A stretch of DNA of 52,326 nucleotides, from the NCBI GenBank assembly GCA_947624515.1, contig CANQKN010000003.1, positions 1 through 52,326 on the forward strand, in the 5' to 3' direction. The translations under genes were made by a program, and so were the position numbers. This document shows, piece after piece, positions 5,095 through 32,868 of the stretch (within the stretch, counting starts at the first letter, position 1; each line of letters starts with the position of its first letter). Origin of the DNA: an uncultured Bacilli bacterium (GTDB taxonomy: Bacteria > Bacillota_I > Bacilli_A > RF39 > UBA660). Below the pieces are notes generated by a model. The model did not search any database. It had not been told where the DNA came from and saw nothing but the letters and a program-made list of their open reading frames with translations.

Positions 5095-6653
5095 CTAAAA
5101 ATGGTAGTATATGGATTTAAAGCTACCCCTCCTCTAAATGGATAACCACTATATAAACCAAAATGTAGGTGAACTCCTGATGCAAAACCACTTCTACCTG
5201 CAGTACCAATCTGATCATTTGACATAACAATATCACCATATTTTTTCGTACGAGAAGCCATATGAGCATACATCGTATAGTAACCATTACTGTGTTTGAT
5301 AATAATATAATTTCCGTTGGTACTATTATAAGAAGATTCTACTACAACACCATTATTCACAGCTTTAATTGCACTTCCATAAGTAATACCGGAAATATCA
5401 AGTCCCTCATGAAGTTTACCCCAACGCCATCCATAAGGACTACTGATTGTATATGGAGTCATAGTAGGCCATACCCAACTACCAATACCAACTGGTACAT
5501 CAATATTAGGATTATAAACTTGATACTGTTTCGTTCCTCTAGTTACTATCTTATTAATAGTTGGAACTAATTCTACAGTAGATCCGGGAACGGTAACAAT
5601 TTCTTTAATTTCACCATTTACTAACTGAATTTTTTGAGTAATTAATTCTAGTCCATCTTGACCTTCTTGTTCTACTCTCTCATACCCTACATATTGAGTA
5701 TCATCATTTTTATATATAGTTTCCATTGTTTTTACTTTTTTAGAAACAACATGTTCCACTTCTACTAAATCAAAAACAGGAGATATTAATCCTAATTTTA
5801 CTACTTGTCCAGGATATAATAGGTCTTGGGCTGTTTTAAAATTAGTATTAGCAATTAAAAATTCTTCGGTTGATAATTTATTATTATAGGAAATTTCTTC
5901 TATTGTATCCCCTGCTTTTACAATATAAGATTCCTGTTCTTTGGTAGTTCCAAAAAGTAAATATTTACTTAATTCCTCTTCTGTTTGATAGATCATATCA
6001 CCTACGGGAATACGAGTTTCCTTAATCATAATATTATTAGCAATACTGATATTTTCAATAATAGTTCCCTCTTCATTTTCCTCTAATTTTTTTTGAGTAT
6101 CATTTAAGTAACTATCATATTGATCACTATCAATGAAAGCAGTTATTGTTTTTCTAACAGAGTTAGTAAAAATATCTTTGTCTAATACATATAAGGTAAT
6201 ATCAGGAGTTGTAGTAACTGTCCCATCTTCATTTGATTTTTCAATACCATTAATTTTTATCTCATATCCATCAACAGTAAAAGAAGAAGGACCCATAATA
6301 TCTTCTATTTTTTGGTAAATTTCTTCTACCGAAAGAATGGTTTCATTATAAGTAATTTCTTTGATAATATCTAAATCATTGGGAGCATATACTTTATCAA
6401 CTTGATACTTTTCTTTTAATTGTTGTTGTTTTCCATCAATATAATCTAATAATTCTTTTTCTGACTCAATTACGCCAATTGATTTACCTGATAAATAAAT
6501 ACGATATAACTGGCGTGGAGTATTTGTATTTGTATAGATTCCAACAATTTTTGCATAAATTGTATTGGGATTTGATCCAATAAAGATAATTGCACATGAT
6601 AGTAAAAATGCTATTATGACAATTAAAATTTGTTTTTTACTCATTTTTTTCAC
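5091..6653 (-). CDS. M23 peptidase with LysM and G5 domains (cell-wall endopeptidase)
   Basis: N-terminal TM/signal; LysM YIVKAGDTIEEIS; G5-like segment; M23 HEGLD and HLH motifs. Confidence 0.9.
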   Translation of the reverse strand: MKKMSKKQILIVIIAFLLSCAIIFIGSNPNTIYAKIVGIYTNTNTPRQLYRIYLSGKSIGVIESEKELLDYIDGKQQQLKEKYQVDKVYAPNDLDIIKEITYNETILSVEEIYQKIEDIMGPSSFTVDGYEIKINGIEKSNEDGTVTTTPDITLYVLDKDIFTNSVRKTITAFIDSDQYDSYLNDTQKKLEENEEGTIIENISIANNIMIKETRIPVGDMIYQTEEELSKYLLFGTTKEQESYIVKAGDTIEEISYNNKLSTEEFLIANTNFKTAQDLLYPGQVVKLGLISPVFDLVEVEHVVSKKVKTMETIYKNDDTQYVGYERVEQEGQDGLELITQKIQLVNGEIKEIVTVPGSTVELVPTINKIVTRGTKQYQVYNPNIDVPVGIGSWVWPTMTPYTISSPYGWRWGKLHEGLDISGITYGSAIKAVNNGVVVESSYNSTNGNYIIIKHSNGYYTMYAHMASRTKKYGDIVMSNDQIGTAGRSGFASGVHLHFGLYSGYPFRGGVALNPYTTIFR

Positions 6654-7998
6654 CCTTATTATCCTTAGTCATATTTAGAAATGTACTGGTACTTTTTTTA
6701 AATAATAAATCGATTTTTCCAGTTGGTCCATTACGATGTTTTCCAATAATTAATTCACTTAAACTTGGATCGGCTGCTTCCCCTAACTCTTTTGTATTTT
6801 GATAGTAGTCATCACGATATAATAAAGCAACAATATCGGCATCTTGTTCAATAGAACCTGATTCTCTTAAATCACTCATTTTTGGCCTTTTATCTTCACG
6901 AGATTCTACACCACGAGATAACTGGGCTAACGCAATGACTGGGATTTTTAGTTCCATAGCCATTTTTTTTAGATTTCTAGAAATATCCGTAATTTCTAAT
7001 TGACGATTATTTCCATAGTTACCACCCATTGTTAATAATTGAAGGTGATCGATAATTACTAAATCTAATCCCTCTTCACTAGTTGCTAGACGACGGCATT
7101 TGGATTTGATATCTCCTACTGTTACTCCTGCATCGTCGCAAATGTAAAGTTTAGCTTGTGCTAATTGACTTTTAGCTTCTGTTATTCTTTTCCAATCTTC
7201 ATTTAAAAGATTACCACTTGTTAGTTTGGTACCTTCAATTTGTCCTAAAGAAGAAAGCATACGATTTGCTAACTGTTCAGCACCCATTTCCAAAGAGAAA
7301 ATAGCCACTGTTTTATCAGTATTTATAGCTACACTGGTAGCAAGATTTAAAGCAAAGGCAGTTTTACCCATGGCAGGACGCGCTGCTAAAATCACTAGTT
7401 GATTTTCATGTAATCCTGAAGTTAGACGATCTAATTCATACCAACCTGTAGGAATTCCGGTAATTTCTCCTTTTGAAGATGCTAATTTTTCTAAATTTTG
7501 TTGCACATCATTTAAAATATTTTGAATCGTTCTAAATTCAGAAGAACGACGATTTTTAATAATTCCTACAATTTTACTTTCTACTTGATCTAAAATATCG
7601 GTTACTTCGCCATTATGTTCATAAGCTAATGTTGCAATTTCTGTAGAAGTATCTATTACGCTTCTTAACATATAATTATCTTCTACTATTTTTATGTAAT
7701 ATTCAATATTAGCAGCAGTTGGTACAACATTTATTAATTCTGTTAGATATTCTACACCGCCTACATCATTCAACTTTTTGGTTTGATTTAATTCTGCTGT
7801 AATTGTTGTTAGGTCAATAGGTACCTTTTTATCATGTAAATCAGCAATAGATTGAAAAATAATTTTGTGTTTATCTAAATAAAATGAATCAGCAAACAAT
7901 TTATCTGTTGCTTTTTCTATTGCACTTGGCGATAGAAACATTGCTCCTAATACAGATTGCTCTGCTACAATATCATTAGGAATGGTTTTAATAGCCAT
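6637..7998 (-). CDS. dnaB: Replicative DNA helicase
   Basis: AEQSVLG, ARPAMGKT, IDHLQL, QLSR, DLRESGSIEQDAD, KHRNG. Confidence 0.97.
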   Translation of the reverse strand: MAIKTIPNDIVAEQSVLGAMFLSPSAIEKATDKLFADSFYLDKHKIIFQSIADLHDKKVPIDLTTITAELNQTKKLNDVGGVEYLTELINVVPTAANIEYYIKIVEDNYMLRSVIDTSTEIATLAYEHNGEVTDILDQVESKIVGIIKNRRSSEFRTIQNILNDVQQNLEKLASSKGEITGIPTGWYELDRLTSGLHENQLVILAARPAMGKTAFALNLATSVAINTDKTVAIFSLEMGAEQLANRMLSSLGQIEGTKLTSGNLLNEDWKRITEAKSQLAQAKLYICDDAGVTVGDIKSKCRRLATSEEGLDLVIIDHLQLLTMGGNYGNNRQLEITDISRNLKKMAMELKIPVIALAQLSRGVESREDKRPKMSDLRESGSIEQDADIVALLYRDDYYQNTKELGEAADPSLSELIIGKHRNGPTGKIDLLFKKSTSTFLNMTKDNKGEKNE

Positions 7999-8011
7999 AT
8001 GATCACCTACT

Positions 8012-8452
8012 TTATTTTACTAATTGTATTTTTAATTCTGCTTTTACCTCTTTGTATAGTGTAATTATTACTTTATGGAATCCTAATGATTGTAAAGAGG
8101 TTGTTAATTCAATTTGTTTTTTATCTATTTTATATCCTTTTTTTAATAATTCTTCTTTGATTTGTTTAGGACTAATACTTCCAAATACTTTATCTTGTTC
8201 TCCTGTTTTTACTTTAAAAGTAAGAGTTATGTTCTCTAATTGTTGTTTTAGTTCATTAGCTTGTTTTGTTAAGGCTTCTTCTTCTTTTCTTTTTGTTTCT
8301 TTTTCTGCTTTTACTTTTTCTAGATTTTTTTCTGTTAGAGGAGTTGCATAACCATTTTTAATAAGGAAGTTTTCAGCATATCCATCTTTTACTTCTTTGA
8401 TATCTCCTTTTTTTGCTTGTTTCTTTAAGTCTTTCACAAAGATTACTTTCAT
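8012..8452 (-). CDS. rplI: 50S ribosomal protein L9
   Basis: MKVIF...[13 protein letters not shown]; KVFGSIS. Confidence 0.97.
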
Positions 8453-8462
8453 AGAATCCCTC

Positions 8463-9431
8463 CTATTTTAATAATTTTTTTAATTCTTCAGCTGCTTGAT
8501 GCAAAGTAATATCTTTTATTTGGGCAGCAGCATCGTGATTATCACCACCACCACCAAATGTTTCAGCTATTTTACCAACATTGATGGTTCCTTCGCTCCT
8601 TGCACTTAATCCAACTCCTCCATCAGTTCTATTTCCTAATACAAAGGATGCTTCAATATTATTAAATTGAAGAAGGGTATCCGCAATTTTAGCAAGTTCT
8701 TCTCGTTTGTATGTAATTTTATCAGGAGCAATGGATAATGCATATTTATCATTAATTACTTTTACTTCTGTAATGACTTTTTGTCTTATTATATAATCTT
8801 TAATGTCTTGTTTCAAGAAATATTGAACTTTTCTAGGAATTGCACCTTGTTCAGCCAAATAATAAGCAGCTTGATATGTCTTTGTAGTAGTCTTTACAAT
8901 AAAATTATTAGTATCCAATACAATTCCTGCTAAAATGAAGGTTGCTGGTTTTGGTTCCAGTTTTACATGATAAGCTTCTATTAAATTCGTTACAATTTCG
9001 CAAGTACTAGAAGCTTGTTCTTCAATAATTCGATCAGTATGGGAAATTGTTTGATCTGTTTCTTGATGATGATCTAATATGATAATATTTTTAAAATAGT
9101 GAAGGACTTTATCACTTTGTAGTAATTGAGCTTTATTGGTATCTACAATGATTAAAATACTTCTCTTGGAATAGTAGTTGGGAATATTACTACTTTGGAT
9201 GATATGATAGTTATTTCCTATTTCTTTTAATACCTTTTCTACACCTAGTTCATGTTTTTCATCATCGATAATAATATAATTTTTCTTATGAAAATGATTA
9301 CTAATTGCTGATACACCAATACAAGCTCCTAAAGCATCTAAATCAAGATTTTTATGAGCCATAATAAAAATATTTTTACTAAATTTTATTTTTCTTTTGA
9401 TCTTTGTTTCTATTTTCATCAGATTCACCAT
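8463..9431 (-). CDS. DHH/DHHA1 phosphoesterase, GdpP-like catalytic domain only
   Basis: [30 protein letters not shown]; syntenic with gdpP upstream of rplI-dnaB but lacks TM/PAS/GGDEF. Confidence 0.85.
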
Positions 9432-9516
9432 TTCCTATCAACATTATACAACAAATCCTAGTAGATGTCCAAGTAAGACATCATTTTTAGATGAAAAAAT
9501 AGAACTTGTGAAAGTT

Positions 9517-10776
9517 CTATCTTATTTTTCTTGGTTCTTCTATCGTTAAACTTAATTTTTTGATGTCTTCTTCGGAAATATAAATTACTTTACCGCCTGG
9601 TGGATTGATTTTGTTATCACCATAAGCAATCCAAATGGCTTTAACTTCTGTTTTTGGCATAGATGCACAACCATCTGTAAAAATTATTTTATTTTCAGCT
9701 TTTCCTGTAAAAGCATTCACTGCTACCTCAAAGTCAGTTCCACCTCTTCCTATAATAGGAAAATTATCTATATCTTCTTGGGTTTTTATTACTTGAAAGC
9801 CATAGAATTTTGTATCAAAACAACCAACACTAATCTCTGAAGTTTGAAGAATTGTTTTACATTCTCTCAAAGTGCTTCTAACTATGTTATCACTTACTGA
9901 ACTGCTTGTATCGATCACAATCTCTGTTTTTGGTTTCGGCTGTTCTTCTATATGTGGTATTACTACTCCATATTCTATGGTAGCATTTATAAATGACCAG
10001 TCTTCTTCTATTTTAGTAGCATTATAAAGTAATTGTTTCCAATTTAATAAATTACTGGCTTCTCCTATATTATCTAATTTTAGATTTTGTTCATCAGTAT
10101 TATTCCCAGCATTTATCATTTGATTTACCAATTGTTTTCTTAGTTTTTTCAGTTTTTGTTTTAATTCTTGTCTATTTTTTTGGAATATTTCTTTTTCGGA
10201 ACAGTCTTTTCCATTAGGTAGATCTTTTGTTTCTTCTTGATACCAACCACTATGGGTATCATGTCCTACATCATATTGTTTAAAATCTTGAGAGTTTTGG
10301 TATTCAGGAGAATGATTGTTTTTCTCTTTCTGATTATTTTTTGAATTTTTTTGTTTTTGCTTTTGATTCATTAATTTTTGATAATATTGTTCAGCACTAT
10401 AATTAATAGCTTCTGGAATATCAACTAATCCATCTATCAGTTTAAAACCATCTTTTTTTAAGTTTGTATTTATTACAGCATCTGTTGCTATATTCCAAAT
10501 TTTAGGATTTCTATCTTTACTTCTTTCATGATGCTTTAAATGGATATGCATTAGTTCATGAGCAAATAAAAAGGTTCTTTCTTCACGATCTAGGTTAGAA
10601 ACAAAATCAGGGTGATACTTTATTTTTGTTTTACTTGCTGCTGCTGTTGGATTTCCATTAAAATCAAAACAATTATAATCTGGGGCTATTTCTATATTAG
10701 CTAATGTACTTCCAAGAAAACTATATGTGAATAAAACATCTCTTATAATTTCTTCTATATTTATTTCACTCTTCAT
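9517..10776 (-). CDS. Zincin-like metallopeptidase plus vWA domain protein (DUF2201-like)
   Basis: FAHELMH (HExxH), WNIATDAVIN, Q/K/N-rich linker, MIDAS DTSSS...RGGTDF...FTDG. Confidence 0.85.
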   Translation of the reverse strand: MKSEINIEEIIRDVLFTYSFLGSTLANIEIAPDYNCFDFNGNPTAAASKTKIKYHPDFVSNLDREERTFLFAHELMHIHLKHHERSKDRNPKIWNIATDAVINTNLKKDGFKLIDGLVDIPEAINYSAEQYYQKLMNQKQKQKNSKNNQKEKNNHSPEYQNSQDFKQYDVGHDTHSGWYQEETKDLPNGKDCSEKEIFQKNRQELKQKLKKLRKQLVNQMINAGNNTDEQNLKLDNIGEASNLLNWKQLLYNATKIEEDWSFINATIEYGVVIPHIEEQPKPKTEIVIDTSSSVSDNIVRSTLRECKTILQTSEISVGCFDTKFYGFQVIKTQEDIDNFPIIGRGGTDFEVAVNAFTGKAENKIIFTDGCASMPKTEVKAIWIAYGDNKINPPGGKVIYISEEDIKKLSLTIEEPRKIR

Positions 10777-10784
10777 AACATCAC

Positions 10785-11189
10785 CTACATTACAGCAACT
10801 AAGGAAGAAATCGTATCATTCATTGTTTCCTGATTAGATTTTCCAGCAATGATTATCACACAGTTTTTTGGTAGATTAAATACATTGACTTTTCTATATT
10901 TTAATAATTCCCCAAATTTTAGTTGTTCTTCTTTTGAAATACTAGATAGATCCTTAATTACTAAGAAGCAATAATTCTCATTCTCATATTGGTTTAATTC
11001 TTGATACCATGATGGTGGTAAAAATTCTTTTTCTTCATAATGCCCTGTTAATTCATTGATGTTGATATCTGCTGGTAAAATGACACTATTTTTATCAAAT
11101 ATATCTGATTGAATATTTTCAAGCAGAATAGGTACATAATGAGTCTTAATATAAGCTTCTATCATTTCTAATCTATCTTGATTTTTCAT
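10785..11189 (-). CDS. Small degenerate (inactive) MoxR-like AAA+ domain protein
   Basis: PPSWYQEL, FLVIKDL and LPKNCVIIIAG align by eye with PTWLKRL, ILFLDEI and LPENARIVVAG of the upstream ATPases; no Walker A. Confidence 0.6.
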   Translation of the reverse strand: MKNQDRLEMIEAYIKTHYVPILLENIQSDIFDKNSVILPADININELTGHYEEKEFLPPSWYQELNQYENENYCFLVIKDLSSISKEEQLKFGELLKYRKVNVFNLPKNCVIIIAGKSNQETMNDTISSLVAVM

Positions 11190-13047
11190 TTTTCGTCTCT
11201 CTTTCTAATTTTTCTAAGCGATGATTATCTCCTTGGGTCCATAAGTTATCAAATAAAGATAAGGTTTCTTCTCCTAATTTTTCTACAAATTCTCTTACAG
11301 TTTCTATGTGCTCTTCATCTACTTGTGATAGGGCTACTGCTGTTACTGCTTTTTCACTAAGATTCATATTTAAATCTTCTTCTGTATAATTTCCATTTAA
11401 AACGTCTTCTAATGTAATTACTCTTTGATTACAGAAGGCTATAAACTCTCTTGTTAGTGCTTCTCCTATTAAAGCTCTTAACATTTCTGGTTTTCCTGTT
11501 GTATATAACATCTTAGATGCCATCTCCCATTTCCTTGGATCGGCATTTGGCTTCTTTCCTGTATATGTCGTTCTTAATGCAGCTTCTCTTCTATAATTGA
11601 TAAAAGCATAAATCGCTGGATGGATCTTCTTTTCGACTTTTCCTTCTTCATAGTCTATCTTTCCATATTCTTCTATTGGTGTTGATGCCCAATTTAACCA
11701 ATCTTCTACTGTTGTATGAATATAAATATGAGCTAGTCTATTATATAATGGCTGTGGTATTTCTATTGCTGATATCGAATCTTCTACTTCATTTCCTGCT
11801 ACTACGATTCTAGCATTTTCTGGTAGTTTCCACTTTCCATCTAATTCTCGATCTAAGATTAAATTATAGGCTAGATTTAGGATATAATTTGATTTTACAT
11901 TCGTGATTTCATCTAAGAATAAAATATGAATTTTATCTTTTTCTTTTTGACATTTTTCTTCTAAACGCTTTAACCAGGTTGGTTTTACATCTATCATTTC
12001 TCCTGTTTCCTGATTATAGACACTTTTTCCTGCAAAGGAATCGGGATTTTGCGTGATCATATAGATGATTTCACAGTCTGGATCAAGTTCTTTTATACGA
12101 GCACTTTTTCCATCACTTGGTAAACCATGTAGAAAGGGGGCAATTCCACTTTTAATAGCTCCTATTATTATTTCTTCTTCGGTTACTTGATCAAAATTCA
12201 AGTTATATAGATTTTTCTTATTGAGTTCTTCTTTTTGTTTTAACATAGCTGTTCTTATATTTTCATTTTGGATATCTCTAATAAAATGAGTATTTAAAAA
12301 CCAGTACAAATTTGTTTGGGTAAAATCTCCTTTATAATTTTCTTCTAAATTAAATTGTACACCTGCAAATAAAATATCTTCTGATATAATTCTATCTTTT
12401 TTCAAATCTCCTAACCATTTAATAGGTTCTACTTCTACCCATACATAATCACCATTTTGATATTTTTTTTTATTAGATAAAGTAAATTCTATTTCATCAT
12501 AAAAATTTGCTTTTACTCTTACATATTTTTTCCCTTGATATTCATATTCAATATGTAATTGAGGTTCAAAATCTCCTTTGTCATCTTTTCTAGAATCTGT
12601 TGTATAGGTTTTTCCCGTCTTTTTTAGAGTTCCTTGATAATATTTTCTTTCTAATACTCTTTGCATATTTTTACCTACTACTGTTTGAGGATATTCTCCA
12701 TACTCTACTTCTAGAATGTTATCATGTGCCAACATTTGATTTGAACAGATGGAAGCGATGGAAGAGTACAGTAAAACTGGACGGCAACCAATATCACGTA
12801 GGCTAGCATTGTAGTTATAACTATTACCAGCACAATTAACAACACGCGCATTATTACCTTCATCGTCTGTTTTGGTCCAATACTGTCCTGTTCTATCTTT
12901 TAAAGCTTTAGATGCATTTCCTCCTAATAATATCGCAAAACCGGTTATTCTAGCACTAGCTCCTCTTTGTTTAAAAATATCTAATCGATTAGTATCATTG
13001 CCATAGATTTGATCTCTTGTTAATATATCAACAATTATATTATTCAT
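11173..13047 (-). CDS. DUF6273/CLec-like N-terminal domain fused to MoxR-type AAA+ ATPase (paralog B)
   Basis: YWTK...GCRPVL, YGEYPQ, EPIKW; Walker A GLPSDGKS, Walker B LFLDE, sensor VVAGN, LYNRL, PRKWE. ATG 13047 follows AGGTGA and overlaps the paralog A stop. Confidence 0.8.
   Translation of the reverse strand: MNNIIVDILTRDQIYGNDTNRLDIFKQRGASARITGFAILLGGNASKALKDRTGQYWTKTDDEGNNARVVNCAGNSYNYNASLRDIGCRPVLLYSSIASICSNQMLAHDNILEVEYGEYPQTVVGKNMQRVLERKYYQGTLKKTGKTYTTDSRKDDKGDFEPQLHIEYEYQGKKYVRVKANFYDEIEFTLSNKKKYQNGDYVWVEVEPIKWLGDLKKDRIISEDILFAGVQFNLEENYKGDFTQTNLYWFLNTHFIRDIQNENIRTAMLKQKEELNKKNLYNLNFDQVTEEEIIIGAIKSGIAPFLHGLPSDGKSARIKELDPDCEIIYMITQNPDSFAGKSVYNQETGEMIDVKPTWLKRLEEKCQKEKDKIHILFLDEITNVKSNYILNLAYNLILDRELDGKWKLPENARIVVAGNEVEDSISAIEIPQPLYNRLAHIYIHTTVEDWLNWASTPIEEYGKIDYEEGKVEKKIHPAIYAFINYRREAALRTTYTGKKPNADPRKWEMASKMLYTTGKPEMLRALIGEALTREFIAFCNQRVITLEDVLNGNYTEEDLNMNLSEKAVTAVALSQVDEEHIETVREFVEKLGEETLSLFDNLWTQGDNHRLEKLERETKNEKSR
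11224..12152. repeat. Direct repeat copy 1 (about 929 bp, ATPase coding region)
   Basis: Matches 13115-14043 at offset 1891; no mismatch seen in spot checks; translations identical. Confidence 0.9.
12778..12870 (-). other. Hypervariable segment, DGR variable-region-like (paralog B)
   Basis: 93 nt between YWTK and CRP; dense first/second-position codon differences versus paralog A; most codons end in C/T. Confidence 0.5.
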
Positions 13048-14971
13048 CTTGTTTATCACCTAGCTTTTTTTCTTTAGCTTTGACATGATTCTTTATTAAT
13101 CTTTCTAAGCGATAATTATCTCCTTGGGTCCATAAGTTATCAAATAAAGATAAGGTTTCTTCTCCTAATTTTTCTACAAATTCTCTTACAGTTTCTATGT
13201 GCTCTTCATCTACTTGTGATAGGGCTACTGCTGTTACTGCTTTTTCACTAAGATTCATATTTAAATCTTCTTCTGTATAATTTCCATTTAAAACGTCTTC
13301 TAATGTAATTACTCTTTGATTACAGAAGGCTATAAACTCTCTTGTTAGTGCTTCTCCTATTAAAGCTCTTAACATTTCTGGTTTTCCTGTTGTATATAAC
13401 ATCTTAGATGCCATCTCCCATTTCCTTGGATCGGCATTTGGCTTCTTTCCTGTATATGTCGTTCTTAATGCAGCTTCTCTTCTATAATTGATAAAAGCAT
13501 AAATCGCTGGATGGATCTTCTTTTCGACTTTTCCTTCTTCATAGTCTATCTTTCCATATTCTTCTATTGGTGTTGATGCCCAATTTAACCAATCTTCTAC
13601 TGTTGTATGAATATAAATATGAGCTAGTCTATTATATAATGGCTGTGGTATTTCTATTGCTGATATCGAATCTTCTACTTCATTTCCTGCTACTACGATT
13701 CTAGCATTTTCTGGTAGTTTCCACTTTCCATCTAATTCTCGATCTAAGATTAAATTATAGGCTAGATTTAGGATATAATTTGATTTTACATTCGTGATTT
13801 CATCTAAGAATAAAATATGAATTTTATCTTTTTCTTTTTGACATTTTTCTTCTAAACGCTTTAACCAGGTTGGTTTTACATCTATCATTTCTCCTGTTTC
13901 CTGATTATAGACACTTTTTCCTGCAAAGGAATCGGGATTTTGCGTGATCATATAGATGATTTCACAGTCTGGATCAAGTTCTTTTATACGAGCACTTTTT
14001 CCATCACTTGGTAAACCATGTAGAAAGGGGGCAATTCCACTTTGGATAGCTCCTATTATTATTTCTTCTTCGGTTACTTCATCAAAATTCAAGTTATATA
14101 AATTTTTCTTATTGAGTTCTTCTTTTTGTTTTAACATAGCTGTTCTTATATTTTCATTTTGAATATCTTTAATAAAATAAGTATTTAAAAACCAGTACAG
14201 ATTTGTTTGAGAAAAATTCCCTATATAATTAATTTCCTGATTAAATTGTACACCTGCAAATAGAATATTTTCGGCTATCGCGATATTATTTTTACTATCT
14301 ACTAACCATTTAATAGGTTCTACTTCTACCCAAATATAATCACCATTTTGATATCTTACACCATTAGATAGAATAAAGTTTTTTTCATCATAACTAGCAT
14401 TTGCTTTTACTCTTACATATTTTTTTCCTTGATATTCATATTCAATATGAGATTGAGGTTCAAAATCTGCTCCTTCTTCCTCATAGTTTCTAGAATCCGT
14501 TGTATAGGTTTTTCCCGTCTTTTTTAAGGTTTCTTTACAAAGTTCCATTTCTAATACTTCTTGCATATTTTTATCTACTGGTTGTTGAGGATATTCCCCA
14601 TACTCTACTTCTAGAATGTTATCGTGTGCTATCACTTGATTTGAAGAGATGGAAGAGATGGCAGAGTATGATAAAACGGGACGACAGCCAATATGACGTC
14701 TGTTAATATTAGTGCTGTTAAAATAACCAGAATAGTTAACAACTTTCACGCAAATACTTCCATCAGCTTTTTTGGTCCAATACTGTCCTGCTCTATCTTT
14801 TAAAGCTTTCGAATTATTTACATGGTCAATTTCAGATGCAACTCCTCCTAATAATATCGCAAAACCAGTTATTCTGGCTCTAGCTCCTCTTTGTTTAAAA
14901 ATATCTAATCGATTAGTATCATCACCAAATATTTGGTCTTCTGTTAGTATATCAACAATTATATTATTCAT
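13040..14971 (-). CDS. DUF6273/CLec-like N-terminal domain fused to MoxR-type AAA+ ATPase (paralog A)
   Basis: Same motifs as paralog B; GGGGAG RBS; C-terminal ATPase translation identical to paralog B. Confidence 0.8.
   Translation of the reverse strand: MNNIIVDILTEDQIFGDDTNRLDIFKQRGARARITGFAILLGGVASEIDHVNNSKALKDRAGQYWTKKADGSICVKVVNYSGYFNSTNINRRHIGCRPVLSYSAISSISSNQVIAHDNILEVEYGEYPQQPVDKNMQEVLEMELCKETLKKTGKTYTTDSRNYEEEGADFEPQSHIEYEYQGKKYVRVKANASYDEKNFILSNGVRYQNGDYIWVEVEPIKWLVDSKNNIAIAENILFAGVQFNQEINYIGNFSQTNLYWFLNTYFIKDIQNENIRTAMLKQKEELNKKNLYNLNFDEVTEEEIIIGAIQSGIAPFLHGLPSDGKSARIKELDPDCEIIYMITQNPDSFAGKSVYNQETGEMIDVKPTWLKRLEEKCQKEKDKIHILFLDEITNVKSNYILNLAYNLILDRELDGKWKLPENARIVVAGNEVEDSISAIEIPQPLYNRLAHIYIHTTVEDWLNWASTPIEEYGKIDYEEGKVEKKIHPAIYAFINYRREAALRTTYTGKKPNADPRKWEMASKMLYTTGKPEMLRALIGEALTREFIAFCNQRVITLEDVLNGNYTEEDLNMNLSEKAVTAVALSQVDEEHIETVREFVEKLGEETLSLFDNLWTQGDNYRLERLIKNHVKAKEKKLGDKQDE
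13115..14043. repeat. Direct repeat copy 2 (about 929 bp, ATPase coding region)
   Basis: Matches 11224-12152. Confidence 0.9.
14678..14770 (-). other. Hypervariable segment, DGR variable-region-like (paralog A)
   Basis: Counterpart of 12778-12870; same length, no indels. Confidence 0.5.
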
Positions 14972-15101: not shown

Positions 15102-15135
15102 AAAAAATAAAAGATGAACTTTTTTGGTTCATCTT
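15102..15135 (-). terminator. Intrinsic terminator after rpsR
   Basis: AAGATGAAC/GTTCATCTT stem followed by a T-rich tract on the minus strand. Confidence 0.7.
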
Positions 15136-15349
15136 ACTTAGTATAAGGTAATAAAGCAATTGCACGAGCGCGTTTGATTTGTTCTGCTATATGCCTTTGA
15201 TGTTTTGCACAAGCTCCTGTAATTCTTCTTGGTAAAATCTTACCTTTATCGTTAATATATCTTTTTAAAGTTTCTACATCTTTATAATTGATATCTTTTC
15301 CTGTACACATGTAGCATACTTTTTTCTTTTTCTTATAAAATTCTGCCAT
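15134..15349 (-). CDS. rpsR: 30S ribosomal protein S18
   Basis: True start [15 protein letters not shown] after AGGAGG; [13 protein letters not shown]...[10 protein letters not shown]...IKRAR. Confidence 0.97.
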
Positions 15350-15365
15350 AGTCTTTCCTCCTTCT

Positions 15366-15848
15366 TTAGAATGGTAATTCATCATCACTAATCTCAATAG
15401 AAGATCCGAAATCTGCAAATGGATCATTTGATACATCTGTAGTTTGATTTGGAGTTGATGCAAAATCATATGGAGTTGCATTATCATTAAATGCAGGTTC
15501 CACATTACTTCCACCATTATTTGTATTAGCAGATCTTGTTCCTAAAAATTGAACATTATCAGCAACTACTTCTGTAACATATCTTTTTTGTCCATCTTGA
15601 CCATCATAACTTCTTGTTTGAATACGACCATCAATTGCTACTTGGCTACCTTTTGTTAGATAGTTTTTTACATTTTCAGCTTGTTTTCTCCAAACAACTA
15701 TATTAATAAAATCAGCTTCTCTTTCTCCATTTTGATTGGTGAAATTTCTATCAACAGCTAAACTAAATGTTGCTGTTGCGACATTACTACTAGTATATCT
15801 TAATTCTGGGTCTTTTGTTAATCTTCCGATTAAAAATACTTTATTCAT
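15366..15848 (-). CDS. ssb: Single-stranded DNA-binding protein
   Basis: [19 protein letters not shown]; acidic tail ISDDELPF. Confidence 0.97.
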
Positions 15849-29704: not shown

Positions 29705-30624
29705 ACTTCTTTACTCCTTTTTACTATTAAATTTTGAATTACAGTAAATAAGTTAGTCGTAATCCAATAAATACATAAAGCTGTTGGCATAAAGAATCCC
29801 ATTACGATAATCATAACTGTCATTACAGTAGTCATATTTTTCATTGGATCATTTTCTGATTGGGCTGTTGTTTTATTTAAACTAAATGAGAAATAAGTTG
29901 TTAATCCAACTAGTAGAATTAAAATGATATAAATCCAATTTCCATTAGTTAATAGTCCAACTGATGGTGTTGTTCCTAATTGTAATCCTAAAAAGTTATC
30001 TTCAAATAATGCTGGAACACGATTGATTGCTTCTAGGAATGCTATAAATAAAGGTAATTGAATAAAACCATATAAACAACCTGATATCGGATTAATATTA
30101 TATTTTTTATAAATCATCGTCATTTCTTGACTTTTTCTCATAATTGATTCTTGATCTGTTTTATTAGCATATTTTTTTTCTAGACGATCTAAATCTGGCT
30201 TCGCTTTATTTAATAATTCTGATTGTAAAGCTGTTTTCTTCGTAATTGGATAAGCAATTAAACGAATTATAATACTGGTAATAATCAATGCTAAAGCAGC
30301 ACTTTTTACATATTTATTAAACCACAAAATAACAAATGCTAATGGTTTAACAAAAATACTATTCCATAATCCTTCATATCCTCCACTGGTAATTTTAAAA
30401 TTACTACATTTTGGATATTTTGATAAATCTACGCCATTTTCTTCATAAGCTTTAATCGTTTCTTTATTTTCCGGTTGGCACAAAATATTTTCTGTTAAAC
30501 TTTGACCAGTTTCTGGATTAATAACTGCTTTCTTATCAGAACCTTTTAAGGTTTTAGTACATCCAGTTGTTAGTAATAAAATTAATACTAGAACAATTAT
30601 TAAACTTTTTTTACTTTTTTTCAT
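29698..30624 (-). CDS. yidC: Membrane protein insertase YidC/SpoIIIJ
   Basis: Lipobox LLTTGC; INPISGCL..IQLP; ALCIYW. Confidence 0.92.
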   Translation of the reverse strand: MKKSKKSLIIVLVLILLLTTGCTKTLKGSDKKAVINPETGQSLTENILCQPENKETIKAYEENGVDLSKYPKCSNFKITSGGYEGLWNSIFVKPLAFVILWFNKYVKSAALALIITSIIIRLIAYPITKKTALQSELLNKAKPDLDRLEKKYANKTDQESIMRKSQEMTMIYKKYNINPISGCLYGFIQLPLFIAFLEAINRVPALFEDNFLGLQLGTTPSVGLLTNGNWIYIILILLVGLTTYFSFSLNKTTAQSENDPMKNMTTVMTVMIIVMGFFMPTALCIYWITTNLFTVIQNLIVKRSKEVC

Positions 30625-30967
30625 TTTGTTCTCCTTTATTTTTGCTTTTGTTCATTAATTCAAGAAAGTTATTTTCTAATTCTTGGTAATTAGATTCTAA
30701 ACAACTTCTTTTCATTATTATAATATAATCTTGATTATTTTCATATAGTTTTTTATGATTATCGATAATACTTTTTAACTTTCTTTTTAATTGATTTCTA
30801 ATTACTGCTTTATTAGAAATTTTTTTTCCAACAGAAATTCCAAAACGATAATATGGTAAATGATTTTCTATCCTATATAATATATAAAAATTATTTTTTA
30901 TCAATTTACCTTTATGTATTGCTTTTTCAAAATCTTTGCTATCTTTCACAATATTTATTTTTTTCAT
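30611..30967 (-). CDS. rnpA: Ribonuclease P protein component
   Basis: RFGISVGKKISNKAVIRNQLKR. Confidence 0.95.
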   Translation of the reverse strand: MKKINIVKDSKDFEKAIHKGKLIKNNFYILYRIENHLPYYRFGISVGKKISNKAVIRNQLKRKLKSIIDNHKKLYENNQDYIIIMKRSCLESNYQELENNFLELMNKSKNKGEQNEKK

Positions 30968-31016
30968 CTAATCACCTATTTTTAAAAGAAGCAAAAAAAA
31001 CCACAATTGTGGTATT

Positions 31017-31139
31017 TTATTTAGATAATCTTTTACGACCTTTTGCTCTTCTTTTGTTTAATACTTTACCCTTAACTCTTGAAAAAAAGCCATGTGTTTT
31101 CTTCATTTTACGATTATTTGGTTGATAAGTTCTTTTCAT
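31017..31139 (-). CDS. rpmH: 50S ribosomal protein L34
   Basis: [18 protein letters not shown]...[19 protein letters not shown]; 40 aa. Confidence 0.95.
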
Positions 31140-31239
31140 AGTTCCACCTCCAGACATAAAATCTACATTATTATAATAAAATTTAAGAGGTTTTGTCAAT
31201 TCTTTCAAAAAAAAACTTTGAAAAATATCAATTTTCTTA

Positions 31240-31420
31240 TTTTCACAATTTCCACATACCTGTTTATAACTTTATTAACTTTGTGAATTAAAAAAAATTT
31301 TATTTTGTGGAAAAAAGCGTTATAATCAGTATATATAAGTATTTTAATTGTGGATAAGTATGTGCATAACTTGTTTATAAAAAAAATATCATTTTTTTCT
31401 ATTTATTTTTCCACAAAAGT
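31240..31420. promoter_or_regulatory. oriC upstream DnaA-box cluster / dnaA promoter region
   Basis: TGTGGATAA 31349-31357, TGTGCATAA 31361-31369, TTTTCCACA 31407-31415, further near matches at about 31248 and 31306. Confidence 0.85.
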
Positions 31421-31473
31421 AAGTTAAAATAAAAATTGCAATTTGAAATTATCTTTAGTCAGGGGGGATAATA

Positions 31474-32868
31474 GTGAATGTAAAAATTATTTGGTCTAAT
31501 TTTTTAAATAGCATTAAAAACGAACTAAATCCCCTATCTTTTGAAACTTGGTTTCAAAGTACTGAATTATATGAATATAAAGATGGAATTTGTAAGATTA
31601 TTGTTCCTATGGCAATTTATAAAAAACATTTAACTACAAAATATTATGACTTAATTGTAAATACTTTAAATCAAGTAGTAGGAGAAATTGTTGATATTCA
31701 ATTTTATACGAAAGAAGAATTAGAAGAACAAGAAGAAATCAAACAAGAAAATCAATATTCCAATTATCATAATAATATAAATGAAAATAGTGATAATAAT
31801 AATTTCGAAACAGATCATTTTGTATCTAATCTTAATAAAAATTATACCTTTGATAATTTTATTGTAGGAAATACTAACAAATTTGCACAGGCTGCTGCTT
31901 TAGAAGTTGCAGAAAATCCTGGGGCTTTATATAATCCTTTATTTATTTATGGAAATAGTGGGTTAGGAAAAACTCATTTAATGCATGCAATTGGAAATTA
32001 TATTACAGAACATTCTAATAAAAAAGTTTTATATGTATCTAGTGATCAATTTATATCAGATTTTTTAGGTATCAATAAAAAAGATGAACATGGAAAAAAT
32101 TTTGATTCAATTAATTATTTTAAAAATAAATATCGAAATATTGATGTCCTGATTGTAGATGATATTCAATTTTTTCAAGGGGCACCACAAACGCAAAATG
32201 AATTTTTTAATACTTTTACGAAATTACATGATGAAAATAAACAAATTATTATTTCTTCTGATCGATCCCCAGATGATTTAAAATTATTAGAAGATCGTTT
32301 ACGAACTCGATTTTGTTGGGGATTAACAGCTGATATTTTTCCACCAGATTTTGATTTAAGAGTTGCTATTCTAAAAAAGAAAATCATAGGGGAGTCTATT
32401 AATAAAAATATTCCTGATGATGTGATTGAATATATTGCTTCTAATGTAGGGAGTGATGTAAGACATTTAGAAGGATCTATTACTAGATTACTTGCTTATT
32501 CTACTATGATGGGCGGATATGAAATTAATTTAGATTTGGCAGTAGATGTATTAAAAGACTTTGTTAATAAAGGATATAGCGAAAAAAATAGTATTAATAG
32601 AATACAAAGAATTGTTGCTGAATACTTTCAAGTATCGGTAGATGATATGAAATCAAAAAAGAGAAGTGCTAATTTAGCATTTCCTAGACAAGTAGCAATG
32701 TATTTATGTAGAAAACTTACTAATGAATCTTTTCCACGAATAGGAATTGAGTTTGGTGGTAAAGATCATTCTACTGTAATGTATTCTGTTGAAAAATTAG
32801 AAAAAGAAATTAGTACAAATAAAGAATTAGCAAATATTATTGAAAAATTAAAAAAAGATATTGTGTGA
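31474..32868 (+). CDS. dnaA: Chromosomal replication initiator DnaA
   Basis: YNPLFIYGNSGLGKTHL, DDIQF, RQVAMYL, GGKDHSTV. Confidence 0.98.
   Translation: MNVKIIWSNFLNSIKNELNPLSFETWFQSTELYEYKDGICKIIVPMAIYKKHLTTKYYDLIVNTLNQVVGEIVDIQFYTKEELEEQEEIKQENQYSNYHNNINENSDNNNFETDHFVSNLNKNYTFDNFIVGNTNKFAQAAALEVAENPGALYNPLFIYGNSGLGKTHLMHAIGNYITEHSNKKVLYVSSDQFISDFLGINKKDEHGKNFDSINYFKNKYRNIDVLIVDDIQFFQGAPQTQNEFFNTFTKLHDENKQIIISSDRSPDDLKLLEDRLRTRFCWGLTADIFPPDFDLRVAILKKKIIGESINKNIPDDVIEYIASNVGSDVRHLEGSITRLLAYSTMMGGYEINLDLAVDVLKDFVNKGYSEKNSINRIQRIVAEYFQVSVDDMKSKKRSANLAFPRQVAMYLCRKLTNESFPRIGIEFGGKDHSTVMYSVEKLEKEISTNKELANIIEKLKKDIV

What the first reader, a model, noticed from the sequence alone, without database searches (positions are those of the whole stretch)
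9517..14971. Candidate undescribed system: variable lectin-like sensor-AAA+ fusions (x2), an inactive AAA+ protein and a zincin-vWA protein
Seen: four tightly packed minus-strand genes (two overlapping junctions and one 8-bp gap) inserted into otherwise housekeeping order. Two tandem paralogs have a divergent N-terminal domain and a constant AAA+ ATPase with intact Walker A/B. Known: MoxR-type AAA+ ATPases work with vWA partners; DUF2201-type partners carry an HExxH peptidase; some MoxR-vWA modules occur in biological conflict systems with a variable third component. Inference: here the variable component is fused to the ATPase itself, giving an interchangeable ligand-recognition head, an ATPase ring and a protease effector. 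This would fit a diversifying sensor-protease or anti-phage system.
Basis: partly seen in the sequence, partly recalled or inferred. Interest (0 to 1): 0.88.

Follow-up and report, generated by a model that had tools for sequence, protein, structure and literature searches.

The report
Lectin-headed AAA+ ATPases with zincin-vWA partner
Four tightly packed genes in a small-genome gut bacterium encode two motor proteins that differ mainly in a lectin-like head, a dead copy of the motor core and a protease partner; in related bacteria a mutagenic retroelement rewrites that same head, which points to a variable recognition machine inside the cell.

Summary
On the minus strand, 9517-14971, lie two tandem head-plus-AAA+ ATPase genes, a 134-aa gene and a DUF2201 zincin-vWA gene. 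They sit between rpsR and a DHH-rplI-dnaB block. The two ATPases share 929 bp of identical DNA in the motor half, while their heads are about 75% identical. The small protein is a paralogue of the ATPase core that lacks the P-loop.

Main new result: the operon is a conserved module. All three part types occur in 71 of 77 related loci from gut Bacilli MAGs. In about 40% of loci with enough upstream sequence, an Avd-like gene, a template repeat and a reverse transcriptase sit directly upstream. In the 15 best template/variable-repeat pairs, 175 of 198 mismatches fall on template adenines. The variable repeat maps onto the most divergent patch of the window's two heads.

The window's own assembly (89% complete) shows no RT, Avd or template. 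Here the variety comes from paralogous heads on a homogenised motor.

The cassette is accessory: it is uncommon in the genus, and one relative carries a deletion scar.

It is a new variant of the DGR-linked MoxR-vWA conflict-system theme. The lectin domain is fused to the ATPase rather than to the vWA protein. Function is inferred, not shown.

The parts
13040..14971 (-). Paralogue A: head (aa 1-275) + linker + MoxR-like AAA+ ATPase (aa ~301-643), 643 aa
   Evidence: ORF. More than 2780 homologues, many matching over the full length. phrog_1297 ATPase 2.3e-42. AF2 model pLDDT 82.5; Foldseek hits to MCM, MoxR 2r44 and RavA 6q7l.
14147..14971 (-). Head domain of A (aa 1-275), lectin-like (DUF6273-like), fast-evolving
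   Evidence: dN/dS 0.56-0.81 against 0.10 for the motor. 23 of 30 ESM-feature hits belong to the DUF6273 set. Relatives have borderline Pfam DUF6273 matches. The head duplicates as one unit in the 914-aa protein P0007.
14678..14749 (-). VR-equivalent hypervariable segment of A (aa 75-98, VKVV...GCRP)
   Evidence: Aligns in register with the DGR variable repeats of 15 relatives. It is the most variable 15-aa window of the family in both RT+ and RT- loci.
13994..14017 (-). Walker A of A (GLPSDGKS, aa 319-326)
   Evidence: G319, G324, K325 and S326 are invariant in 38 sequences.
13799..13816 (-). Walker B of A (ILFLDE, aa 386-391)
   Evidence: D390 and E391 are invariant.
13115..14043 (-). 929-bp stretch of A identical to B 11224-12152 (homogenised motor module)
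   Evidence: longest exact match; identity profile.
11173..13059 (-). Paralogue B: head + MoxR-like AAA+ ATPase, 628 aa from GTG 13059 (ATG at 13047)
   Evidence: phrog_1297 1.4e-42.
12778..12849 (-). VR-equivalent hypervariable segment of B (aa 71-94, ARVV...GCRP)
10785..11189 (-). Small protein (134 aa): AAA+ alpha/beta core without a P-loop, paralogue of the ATPase core
   Evidence: hhalign 95.2%, E 2.6e-8 to A aa 303-452. AF2 pLDDT 85.9, pTM 0.80. Foldseek NorQ 9qh7_E and CbbQ 6l1q, TMq 0.64-0.66. Predicted to bind the ATPase module. Present in 74 of 77 loci.
9517..10776 (-). Zincin-vWA protein (419 aa): DUF2201_N peptidase (HELMH, nt 10546-10560), low-complexity linker, DUF2201 vWA with MIDAS (DTSSS, nt 9898-9912)
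   Evidence: Pfam. phrog_1314 2.4e-60. Invariant H73, H77, H82, D289, S291, S293, T347 and D368. Coordinates.
15111..15135 (-). Terminator-like hairpin after rpsR, marking the upstream edge of the cassette
   Evidence: A 162-bp spacer with a GGGGAG ribosome-binding site precedes the ATG of A.
9443..9471 (-). Promoter-like site (TGGACA-17-TATAAT) between vWA and DHH, marking the downstream edge of the cassette
   Evidence: 11 of 12 matches. This is a consensus match only.

Best explanation
The cassette is a self-contained, accessory, cytoplasmic recognition-and-proteolysis module. [quoted passage not shown]

Proposed working:
- The MoxR-like AAA+ subunits form a ring.
- Each subunit carries an N-terminal lectin-like head whose hypervariable loop binds a ligand, most likely a foreign (phage or mobile-element) protein.
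- The small P-loop-less AAA+ paralogue docks on the nucleotide face of a motor subunit and acts as a cap or regulator.
- The zincin-vWA protein is held on the ring through its MIDAS-vWA domain, as in NorQ-NorD and CbbQ-CbbO.
- It either cleaves what the heads capture or is switched on by ligand capture.

In this window the DGR is missing. Two paralogous heads on an identical motor supply the variety, and mixed rings are possible.

Shown: gene content, motifs, homologies, operon conservation, DGR targeting of the head in relatives, fast head evolution, accessory status.
Inferred: ring formation, binding of the vWA protein, the nature of the ligand, the protease substrate, and the conflict role.
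For: 1. Conserved operon. The order [head-ATPase]x1-4, small, vWA holds across the family. All three part types occur in 71 of 77 loci, and 5 of the 6 exceptions end at a contig edge.

2. DGR upstream in relatives. An RT cluster occurs in 26 of 77 loci and an Avd-like cluster in 21 of 77. RT is present in 22 of 58 or 23 of 59 loci with at least 2 kb upstream.

3. Template-to-variable-repeat mismatches. In L091, 14 of 14 mismatches fall on template adenines. Over all 22 ungapped alignments the figure is 237 of 318. In the 15 pairs kept by the filter (at least 70 nt, at least 70% at A) it is 175 of 198. The variable repeat lies at aa ~70-108 of the fusion protein.

4. Variability of that segment. 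It is the most variable 15-aa window in 22 RT+ and in 44 RT- sequences. Scaffold residues G82, R92 and R97 stay fixed.

5. Phylogeny. The window clade's two nearest sister lineages, L017 and L019, are RT+ (support 99 and 96; quick tree).

6. Selection. Head dN/dS is 0.56-0.81. The motor is 0.10, small 0.13, vWA 0.33, DHH 0.09 and dnaB 0.05.

7. Diverged heads on a near-identical motor recur in other tandem loci: L021 52/98%, L028 43/96%, L054 64/97%, L087 65/90%.

8. Small protein. It is a P-loop-less AAA+ core. The complex model supports binding to the motor: score 0.66, best of 3 controls 0.00. That mark was reached by 58 of 80 solved complexes and 2 of 110 mismatched pairs. Runs agree in at least 83% of contacts and partner pLDDT is at least 82. 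The interface includes Walker A and Walker B residues. AAA+ protomer interfaces are solved many times, so this pass may reflect likeness.

9. Catalytic residues. HExxH and MIDAS are invariant.

10. Cytoplasmic. No hydrophobic 19-mer exceeds 1.25 on the Kyte-Doolittle scale.

11. Accessory. Full-length matches occur in 4 of 25 genus genomes. rpsR abuts DHH in 17 of 26. G004 keeps a frameshifted remnant of the last 53 vWA codons at the same site.

12. Precedent. DGR-diversified lectin domains are described in MoxR-vWA conflict systems (PMC7159879 and PMC10907252, passages read).
Against: - No RT, Avd or template repeat was found in the window's assembly. The assembly is 89% complete, so a DGR elsewhere in the genome is not excluded.
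- A and B differ beyond adenine-type changes and outside the VR. Their VR differences are only weakly enriched at template-A positions (15 of 29 against 10 of 43, p 0.02).
- None of the four proteins matches a PADLOC model.
- The nearest neighbours of the module are heterogeneous, often housekeeping genes. No defence family appears in more than 3 of 117 neighbours.
- The lectin fold of the head was not confirmed by a structure search. Whole-model searches return only AAA+ hits, and a PDB profile search gave nothing significant.
- Pfam DUF6273 matches cover only the last third of the model. Only 1 of the 7 proteins examined exceeds the cut-off.
- All comparative data come from MAGs.
- No expression or phenotype data exist.
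Confidence: 0.55

Rival explanations
1. It is a chaperone-protease pair for assembling or maturing a cellular or phage-derived structure, as proposed for the jumbo-phage MoxR plus metallopeptidase-vWA pair. The head serves as a substrate adaptor, not an immune sensor.
For: The core pair matches the phage families phrog_1297 (1.4e-42) and phrog_1314 (2.4e-60). Distant homologues of both proteins occur in N4-like and jumbo phages. PMC7824862 (passage read) proposes a virion-assembly role for such a pair. Solved MoxR-vWA pairs such as NorQ-NorD and CbbQ are maturation chaperones (titles).
Against: No structural or client genes are conserved next to the module in 77 loci. A housekeeping chaperone would not be expected to be DGR-targeted, uncommon in the genus, variable in copy number and deleted in a close relative.
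Confidence: 0.2
2. It is a selfish or decaying mobile cassette, a remnant of a DGR element, with no current function in this genome. The two copies are then just a recent duplication.
For: The DGR is missing. A relative has a deletion scar. Some loci carry Mob_Pre or serine-recombinase genes, 4 loci each. Synonymous divergence between G000 and G019 is lower in the cassette than in its flanks.
Against: All four ORFs are intact, with invariant catalytic residues. The motor and the small gene are under strong purifying selection, dN/dS 0.10 and 0.13. The operon is conserved in RT- loci as well.
Confidence: 0.1
3. It is a surface or host-interaction factor. The lectin head binds an external ligand, as most DGR targets do (phage receptor-binding proteins, tentaclins).
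For: DUF6273 domains described so far are phage receptor-binding or decoration proteins (PMC10743442 and bioRxiv 10.1101/2024.10.15.618418, passages read).
Against: None of the four proteins has a signal-peptide-like or transmembrane stretch. The head is fused to a cytoplasmic-type AAA+ ATPase. No secretion genes are conserved nearby.
Confidence: 0.05

Closest known systems
DGR-associated MoxR-vWA (VMAP) ternary conflict systems (Kaur et al. 2020, PMC7159879; Dore et al. 2024, PMC10907252)
   Same: A MoxR-type AAA+ ATPase, a vWA protein and a third component, combined with a C-type-lectin/FGS domain that a neighbouring DGR hypermutates. A peptidase serves as effector. The proposed role is invader sensing.
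   Different: In those systems the lectin domain is C-terminal and fused to the vWA component, the third protein is a VMAP, and the hosts are mostly multicellular cyanobacteria, actinobacteria and gammaproteobacteria. Here the lectin-like head is N-terminal on the ATPase itself. The vWA protein carries an N-terminal zincin. The third protein is a P-loop-less AAA+ core. The hosts are gut Bacilli with genomes listed at about 0.7-1.8 Mb in the genus. The window's own locus has no DGR.
Phage MoxR ATPase plus metallopeptidase-vWA pair (jumbo phages, PMC7824862; PHROG families 1297 and 1314; N4-like phages)
   Same: The same two-gene core: an AAA_5-like ATPase next to or near a zincin-vWA (DUF2201) protein. 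Both window proteins hit the PHROG models strongly.
   Different: The phage ATPases are ~350 aa and have no head. No small AAA+ paralogue is reported and no DGR is linked. Identity to the window proteins is only 22-30%. The window's cassette is chromosomal.
DUF6273 DGR targets of gut phages (tentaclins and Mtd-like proteins, PMC10743442; Toutatisvirus hotspot, bioRxiv 10.1101/2024.10.15.618418)
   Same: [quoted passage not shown] The variable repeat ends in a G-x-R-P-like scaffold. It is targeted by Avd-TR-RT cassettes.
   Different: Those are virion or receptor-binding proteins joined to Ig-like domains. Here the domain is joined to a cytoplasmic AAA+ motor, and the Pfam match is borderline and partial.
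NorQ-NorD, CbbQ-CbbO and RavA-ViaA MoxR-vWA chaperone pairs
   Same: An AAA+ hexamer of the MoxR class working with a MIDAS-vWA partner. These are the best structural matches of the small protein and good matches of the motor.
   Different: They have no variable head, no zincin, no dead paralogous subunit and no DGR link. They have dedicated metabolic clients.

Membership tests
MoxR-class AAA+ ATPase (Pfam AAA_5) | Walker A GxxxxGK[ST] and Walker B hhhhDE | tested here: met
   GLPSDGKS and ILFLDE are present, with invariant residues in 38 sequences.
MoxR-class AAA+ ATPase (Pfam AAA_5) | Pfam AAA_5 match above the curated cut-off | tested here: not met
   The window proteins give no Pfam hit at E <= 0.1. 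9 of 38 relatives hit at E <= 0.01. Of the relatives examined one by one, the normal-length P0057 and P0068 score ~17 bits, below the 22-bit cut-off. Only the atypical 1018-aa P0009 exceeds it (29.1 bits), through a short P-loop match.
MoxR-class AAA+ ATPase (Pfam AAA_5) | Structural likeness to solved MoxR ATPases | tested here: met
   Foldseek gives 2r44 at E 6.5e-7 and RavA 6q7l at 9.5e-7. MCM chains rank higher. Viral hits are dynein-related or MoxR-like ATPases.
DUF2201 zincin-vWA | Pfam DUF2201_N and DUF2201 above the cut-offs | tested here: met
   94.5 bits (cut-off 23.2) and 46.3 bits (cut-off 26.4).
DUF2201 zincin-vWA | HExxH metal site and MIDAS DxSxS...T...D | tested here: met
   H73, H77, H82, D289, S291, S293, T347 and D368 are invariant, and E74 is at least 90% conserved, in 28 sequences.
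DGR target protein | Variable repeat matched by a template repeat, with mismatches at template adenines | tested here: not met
   Window: no template was found in the assembly. Relatives: met in 15 loci, 175 of 198 mismatches at A.
DGR target protein | DGR reverse transcriptase and Avd accessory gene in the locus or genome | tested here: not met
   Window genome: PF00078 gives none and tblastn gives none; the assembly is 89% complete. Relatives: RT in 26 of 77 loci and Avd-like in 21 of 77. The Avd Pfam match is weak, 23 bits against a cut-off of 40.
DUF6273 / C-type-lectin-like domain | Pfam DUF6273 match above the cut-off | tested here: inconclusive
   The window proteins give none. 5 of 38 relatives hit at E <= 0.01. 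The matches cover only profile positions ~103-169 of 172, and 1 of 7 proteins examined exceeds 23.5 bits. 23 of 30 ESM-feature hits fall in the DUF6273 set.
DUF6273 / C-type-lectin-like domain | C-type-lectin fold of the head | tested here: inconclusive
   The AF2 head is confident, with block pLDDT mostly 77-95. Whole-model Foldseek returns only AAA+ hits. The PDB profile search gives nothing below E 0.01. No separate fold search of the head was possible.
VMAP-type MoxR-vWA ternary system | Third component is a VMAP protein, and the effector or lectin domain is fused to the vWA component | tested here: not met
   The third component is an AAA+ core paralogue. The lectin-like head is on the ATPase. 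No VMAP profile was at hand, so VMAP was judged only by exclusion.
Known anti-phage systems (PADLOC v2) | Any component matches a PADLOC model | tested here: not met
   0 families for all four proteins at E <= 0.1.
Phage MoxR + metallopeptidase-vWA pair | Both genes match the phage families, and the genome context is phage | tested here: inconclusive
   The PHROG matches are strong. The context is chromosomal, between rpsR and DHH. No virion genes appear among the recurrent flanking-gene clusters, the 10 cluster representatives scanned or the top 25 families of the 117 nearest neighbours.

The most novel reading that the evidence does not exclude
This family is an intracellular, retargetable immune receptor-protease of minimal-genome gut bacteria. 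The lectin head on each AAA+ subunit is an antibody-like variable site, rewritten by a DGR where one is present. Where the DGR is lost, as in this window, it is replaced by arrays of paralogous heads kept on a gene-converted common motor. Captured foreign proteins would be unfolded and cut by the tethered zincin. If so, DGR-driven anticipatory immunity is not tied to multicellular bacteria, and paralogue arrays and hypermutation are alternative routes to the same repertoire.
Probability: 0.3. Interest if true: 0.85.

Novelty: new variant of a known kind. Interest (0 to 1): 0.72.

Why it matters
DGR-diversified lectin sensors coupled to MoxR-vWA machines have been presented as a trait of multicellular bacteria (PMC7159879, PMC10907252). 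Here a compact four-part version appears in gut Bacilli with small genomes (about 0.7-1.8 Mb in the genus), and the variable domain sits on the motor itself.

The family is large: more than 2780 proteins and 240 hits among species-representative genomes. Its parts are small and soluble, which suits biochemistry.

It also offers a natural comparison between loci with a DGR and loci with tandem heads. All 7 tandem-motor loci among 59 lacked an RT (but see L019 and L080 under Tried and rejected). This could show how bacteria build recognition repertoires.

Finally, it gives a first functional handle on the widespread phage MoxR plus DUF2201 pair, whose role is unknown.

Tried and rejected
1. DGR in the window's own genome. 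PF00078, tblastn with a relative's RT and Avd plus blastn-short with both VR segments, and a second RT query on G000, G019, G023, G015 and G004 found nothing linked to the locus. This is not proof of absence: completeness is 87-89%.

2. A direct DGR origin of the A/B differences. Rejected as the sole cause. The differences include indels, third-position changes and patches outside the VR, and enrichment at template-A positions is weak.

3. Reads.
- Of the 9 runs listed, four (X1-X4, one sample) hold half or more of the sampled words and five hold only a small share (0.05-0.12); all are kept as contigs, and no RNA holder is listed.
- Laying X1, X2, X3 and X5 gave fragmented, low-depth contigs.
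- Only one contig spans the VR of A, with no differences. X2 and X3 have no cover there.
- This says nothing about population variation or expression.

4. Fold of the head. The whole-model Foldseek searches (PDB, viral) are dominated by the AAA+ half. The PDB profile search with a head-only alignment gave only chance-level hits, best E 0.014, hemopexin-like.

5. Defence-island context. A PADLOC and a Pfam scan of the 117 nearest neighbours showed no recurrent defence family. The maximum was 3 of 117 in PADLOC and 4 of 117 (generic AAA) in Pfam.

6. 'Tandem heads replace the DGR'. 7 of 36 RT- loci against 0 of 23 RT+ loci have two or more full motors (Fisher p 0.036). The loci are related, so the test overstates. 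L019 (RT+, second copy cut by the contig end) and L080 (four copies, with an RT fragment at the contig start) are counter-examples.

7. The careful tree did not finish in 300 s. The quick IQ-TREE was used.

9. Supplements of the DGR surveys could not be opened. Wu et al. (PMC5758913) mention CPR targets that match a Midasin AAA domain. These might be related, and I could not check.

10. 'Not in print'. Searches for DUF6273, DUF2201, DGR+MoxR, DGR+AAA+vWA, DGR+gut+ATPase, DGR+gut microbiome+AAA+, and DGR+metallopeptidase+von Willebrand found no paper describing this fusion architecture. Subscription journals are not covered.

Full report
**What is in the window**

One search shows four minus-strand ORFs:
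- A: 13040-14971, 643 aa.
- B: 11173-13059, 628 aa.
- Small: 10785-11189, 134 aa.
- vWA protein: 9517-10776, 419 aa.

Upstream lie rpsF, ssb and rpsR. Downstream lie a DHH-family gene, rplI and dnaB. A terminator-like hairpin follows rpsR. A near-consensus promoter-like site precedes DHH. The cassette therefore looks like its own transcription unit. None of the four proteins has a membrane-like stretch. The genome is a 1.02-Mb, 72-contig assembly, 89% complete, with about 28% G+C.

**The parts**

- *vWA protein.* It is a clear DUF2201_N zincin plus DUF2201 vWA protein. The HExxH histidines and a full MIDAS motif are invariant in 28 relatives.
- *A and B.* They have no Pfam match of their own. 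Their C-terminal halves match the phage ATPase family phrog_1297, and the vWA protein matches phrog_1314. Walker A and Walker B are intact and invariant. The AF2 model of A (pLDDT 82.5) matches MCM, the MoxR protein 2r44 and RavA, and phage dynein-related or MoxR-like ATPases.
- *Small protein.* It aligns with A residues 303-452 (hhalign 95.2%, E 2.6e-8). The P-loop is deleted and the Walker B acidic pair is lost. Its model (pLDDT 85.9) best matches NorQ and CbbQ. It is a dead paralogue of the motor core.
- *Predicted contact.* A complex prediction supports binding of the small protein to the motor module: score 0.66, best of 3 controls 0.00. That mark was reached by 58 of 80 solved complexes and 2 of 110 mismatched pairs. 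The runs agree in at least 83% of contacts, and partner pLDDT is at least 82. The contacts include the Walker A and B region. AAA+ protomer interfaces are abundant among solved structures, so this pass may show likeness rather than prove binding.

**The two paralogues**

A and B are 86% identical. A 929-bp stretch of the motor half is identical base for base. The heads are about 75% identical, and their differences cluster in patches. The densest patch is A aa 75-98 and B aa 71-94.

Comparison with the close relative G019 gives these dN/dS values:
- Heads: 0.56-0.81.
- Motor: 0.10.
- Small gene: 0.13.
- vWA gene: 0.33.
- Flanking DHH: 0.09.
- Flanking dnaB: 0.05.

**The family**

More than 2780 proteins match, and most of the 120 listed do so over the full length at about 50% identity. 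A scan of species-representative genomes found 240 encoding stretches. I kept 77 loci, almost all from gut MAGs labelled Bacilli, Tenericutes or Mollicutes.

- All three component types are present in 71 of 77 loci, in the order fusion(s), small, vWA. Five of the six exceptions stop at a contig end.
- Two or more heads occur in 16 of 77 loci.
- Some listed proteins are about 900 aa long. The one compared, P0007 (914 aa), carries two heads in tandem on one motor.
- Median identity to the window is 40% for heads, 58% for motors and 44% for the small protein.

**The key finding**

Clustering the flanking genes showed two recurrent upstream neighbours. One is a reverse transcriptase (PF00078), in 26 of 77 loci. 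The other is a weakly bAvd-like protein, in 21 of 77. Among loci with at least 2 kb upstream, 22 of 58 or 23 of 59 carry the RT.

Between Avd and RT lies a template repeat that matches the head.
- In L091, an 80-nt template differs from the variable repeat at 14 positions, all template adenines.
- Of 34 gene-by-locus comparisons, 22 gave an ungapped alignment of at least 40 nt. In these, 237 of 318 mismatches lie at template A.
- Fifteen pairs passed a filter of at least 70 nt and at least 70% of mismatches at A. In these, 175 of 198 mismatches lie at A. The filter itself selects for A bias. However, three loci show 36 of 36.
- Nine RT+ loci gave no clean pair: L023, L024, L025, L035, L042, L072, L077, L080 and L088.

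The variable repeat covers aa ~70-108 of the fusion protein. It aligns without gaps to the hypervariable patch of the window's A and B. That segment is the most variable 15-residue window in 22 RT+ sequences and also in 44 RT- sequences, with fixed scaffold residues G82, R92, R97 and P98. The family is therefore a genuine DGR target. Even DGR-less members carry the same pattern of variation.

**The window's own state**

No RT, Avd or template was found in the assembly. In the quick maximum-likelihood tree of the motor, the window's copies and G019 form a clade. Its two nearest sister lineages, L017 and L019, are RT+ (support 99 and 96). RT+ and RT- loci are interleaved, with at least 9 changes forced by well-supported branches. 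Loss of the DGR in this lineage is the simplest reading.

A-versus-B differences in the VR segment are only weakly enriched at template-adenine positions (15 of 29 against 10 of 43, p 0.02). Differences also exist elsewhere, so ordinary divergence and recombination contributed too.

Diverged heads on a near-identical motor recur in other tandem loci: L021, L028, L054, L087, L034, L065 and L092. L045 and L080 are whole-gene recent duplicates. Tandem motors were seen in 7 of 36 RT- loci and 0 of 23 RT+ loci (p 0.036, not independent). L019 and L080 are counter-examples.

**Accessory status**

- Full-length matches occur in 4 of 25 genus genomes: G000, G019, G023 and G015.
- In 17 of 26 genus genomes with the DHH gene, rpsR lies directly beside it. 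Four others have a different ~1.2-kb insert.
- G019 has the tandem cassette at the same site.
- G023 has a single, 50%-identical version next to rpsR.
- G004 retains the last 53 codons of the vWA gene, frameshifted, plus the flanking spacers. This is a deletion scar.
- Elsewhere the module sits in varied contexts. No defence family recurs among its nearest neighbours.

**Comparison with the literature**

- DUF6273 is described as a C-type-lectin-like DGR target in gut phages (passages of PMC10743442 and bioRxiv 10.1101/2024.10.15.618418).
- Kaur et al. (PMC7159879) and Dore et al. (PMC10907252) describe DGR-diversified lectin/FGS domains in MoxR-vWA ternary conflict systems. There the lectin is fused to the vWA component, and the hosts are mainly multicellular bacteria (passages).
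- Iyer et al. (PMC7824862) note a MoxR plus metallopeptidase-vWA pair in jumbo phages and propose a chaperone role (passage).
- My seven searches found no description of the head-on-ATPase architecture with a dead AAA+ third subunit.
- Supplements were closed. The 'Midasin-like' CPR targets in Wu et al. could not be checked.

**Verdict**

The system is best filed as a new variant of DGR-linked MoxR-vWA conflict systems, built on the phage-type MoxR plus zincin-vWA core. The immune or proteolytic mechanism remains an inference. The lectin fold of the head and its membership of DUF6273 are only partly supported.

Noticed in passing
L017, L018, L029, L050 (variable repeats within the fusion genes; e.g. 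L018 ORF 7974-8246, then 8319-9908): Several template repeats contain in-frame TAA or TAG codons. In four RT+ MAGs the variable repeat keeps a stop at the same codon, which splits the target gene. This could be an on/off effect of retrohoming. It could also be an assembly consensus of a mixed population.
   Followed up: partly
L072:6385-7887: In this locus the RT ORF is 500 aa long. It carries the N-terminal half of a C-5 cytosine DNA methylase (PF00145, 1.1e-40) in front of the RT domain. The other RTs of the cluster are about 340-370 aa. It is either a fusion or a read-through of two genes.
   Followed up: no
G023:C2:328-1212 (L120): An RT-like frame (33% identity to the L017 RT) contains 7 in-frame TAG codons and no other stops. 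This may be a TAG-recoded phage contig binned with the genome.
   Followed up: no
L096 (G004:C27) 417-574: A deletion scar lies at the rpsR/DHH junction. The last 53 codons of the vWA gene survive, frameshifted, at 84% and 73% identity. About 100 bp of the spacer upstream of gene A also survives.
   Followed up: yes
window 9517-14971 compared with 6637-9431: Between G000 and G019, synonymous divergence is lower in the cassette (0.10-0.34) than in the flanking DHH, rplI and dnaB genes (0.46-0.82). This fits recent exchange of the cassette between the two lineages, or different codon constraints.
   Followed up: no
window ~30000-32000: GC skew changes sign and the cumulative skew reaches its minimum near 31 kb. 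All genes examined at 6-18 kb are on the minus strand. This suggests a replication origin or terminus inside the window.
   Followed up: no
L065 (6054-17823) and L080 (404-9866): These loci carry arrays of the module. L065 has two complete cassettes, each with two fusions, small and vWA, followed by a fifth head. L080 has one cassette followed by three nearly identical extra fusion genes.
   Followed up: partly
L095, L103, L113, L114 (G010, G041, G003, G002): Four genus genomes have a different insert of about 1.1-1.3 kb between rpsR and DHH. It does not match any cassette protein. The junction may be a recurrent insertion site.
   Followed up: no
window 15134-15517: The listed 127-aa ORF for rpsR has a long N-terminal extension that overlaps ssb. 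Relatives match only its last ~78 residues. The true start is probably internal.
   Followed up: no
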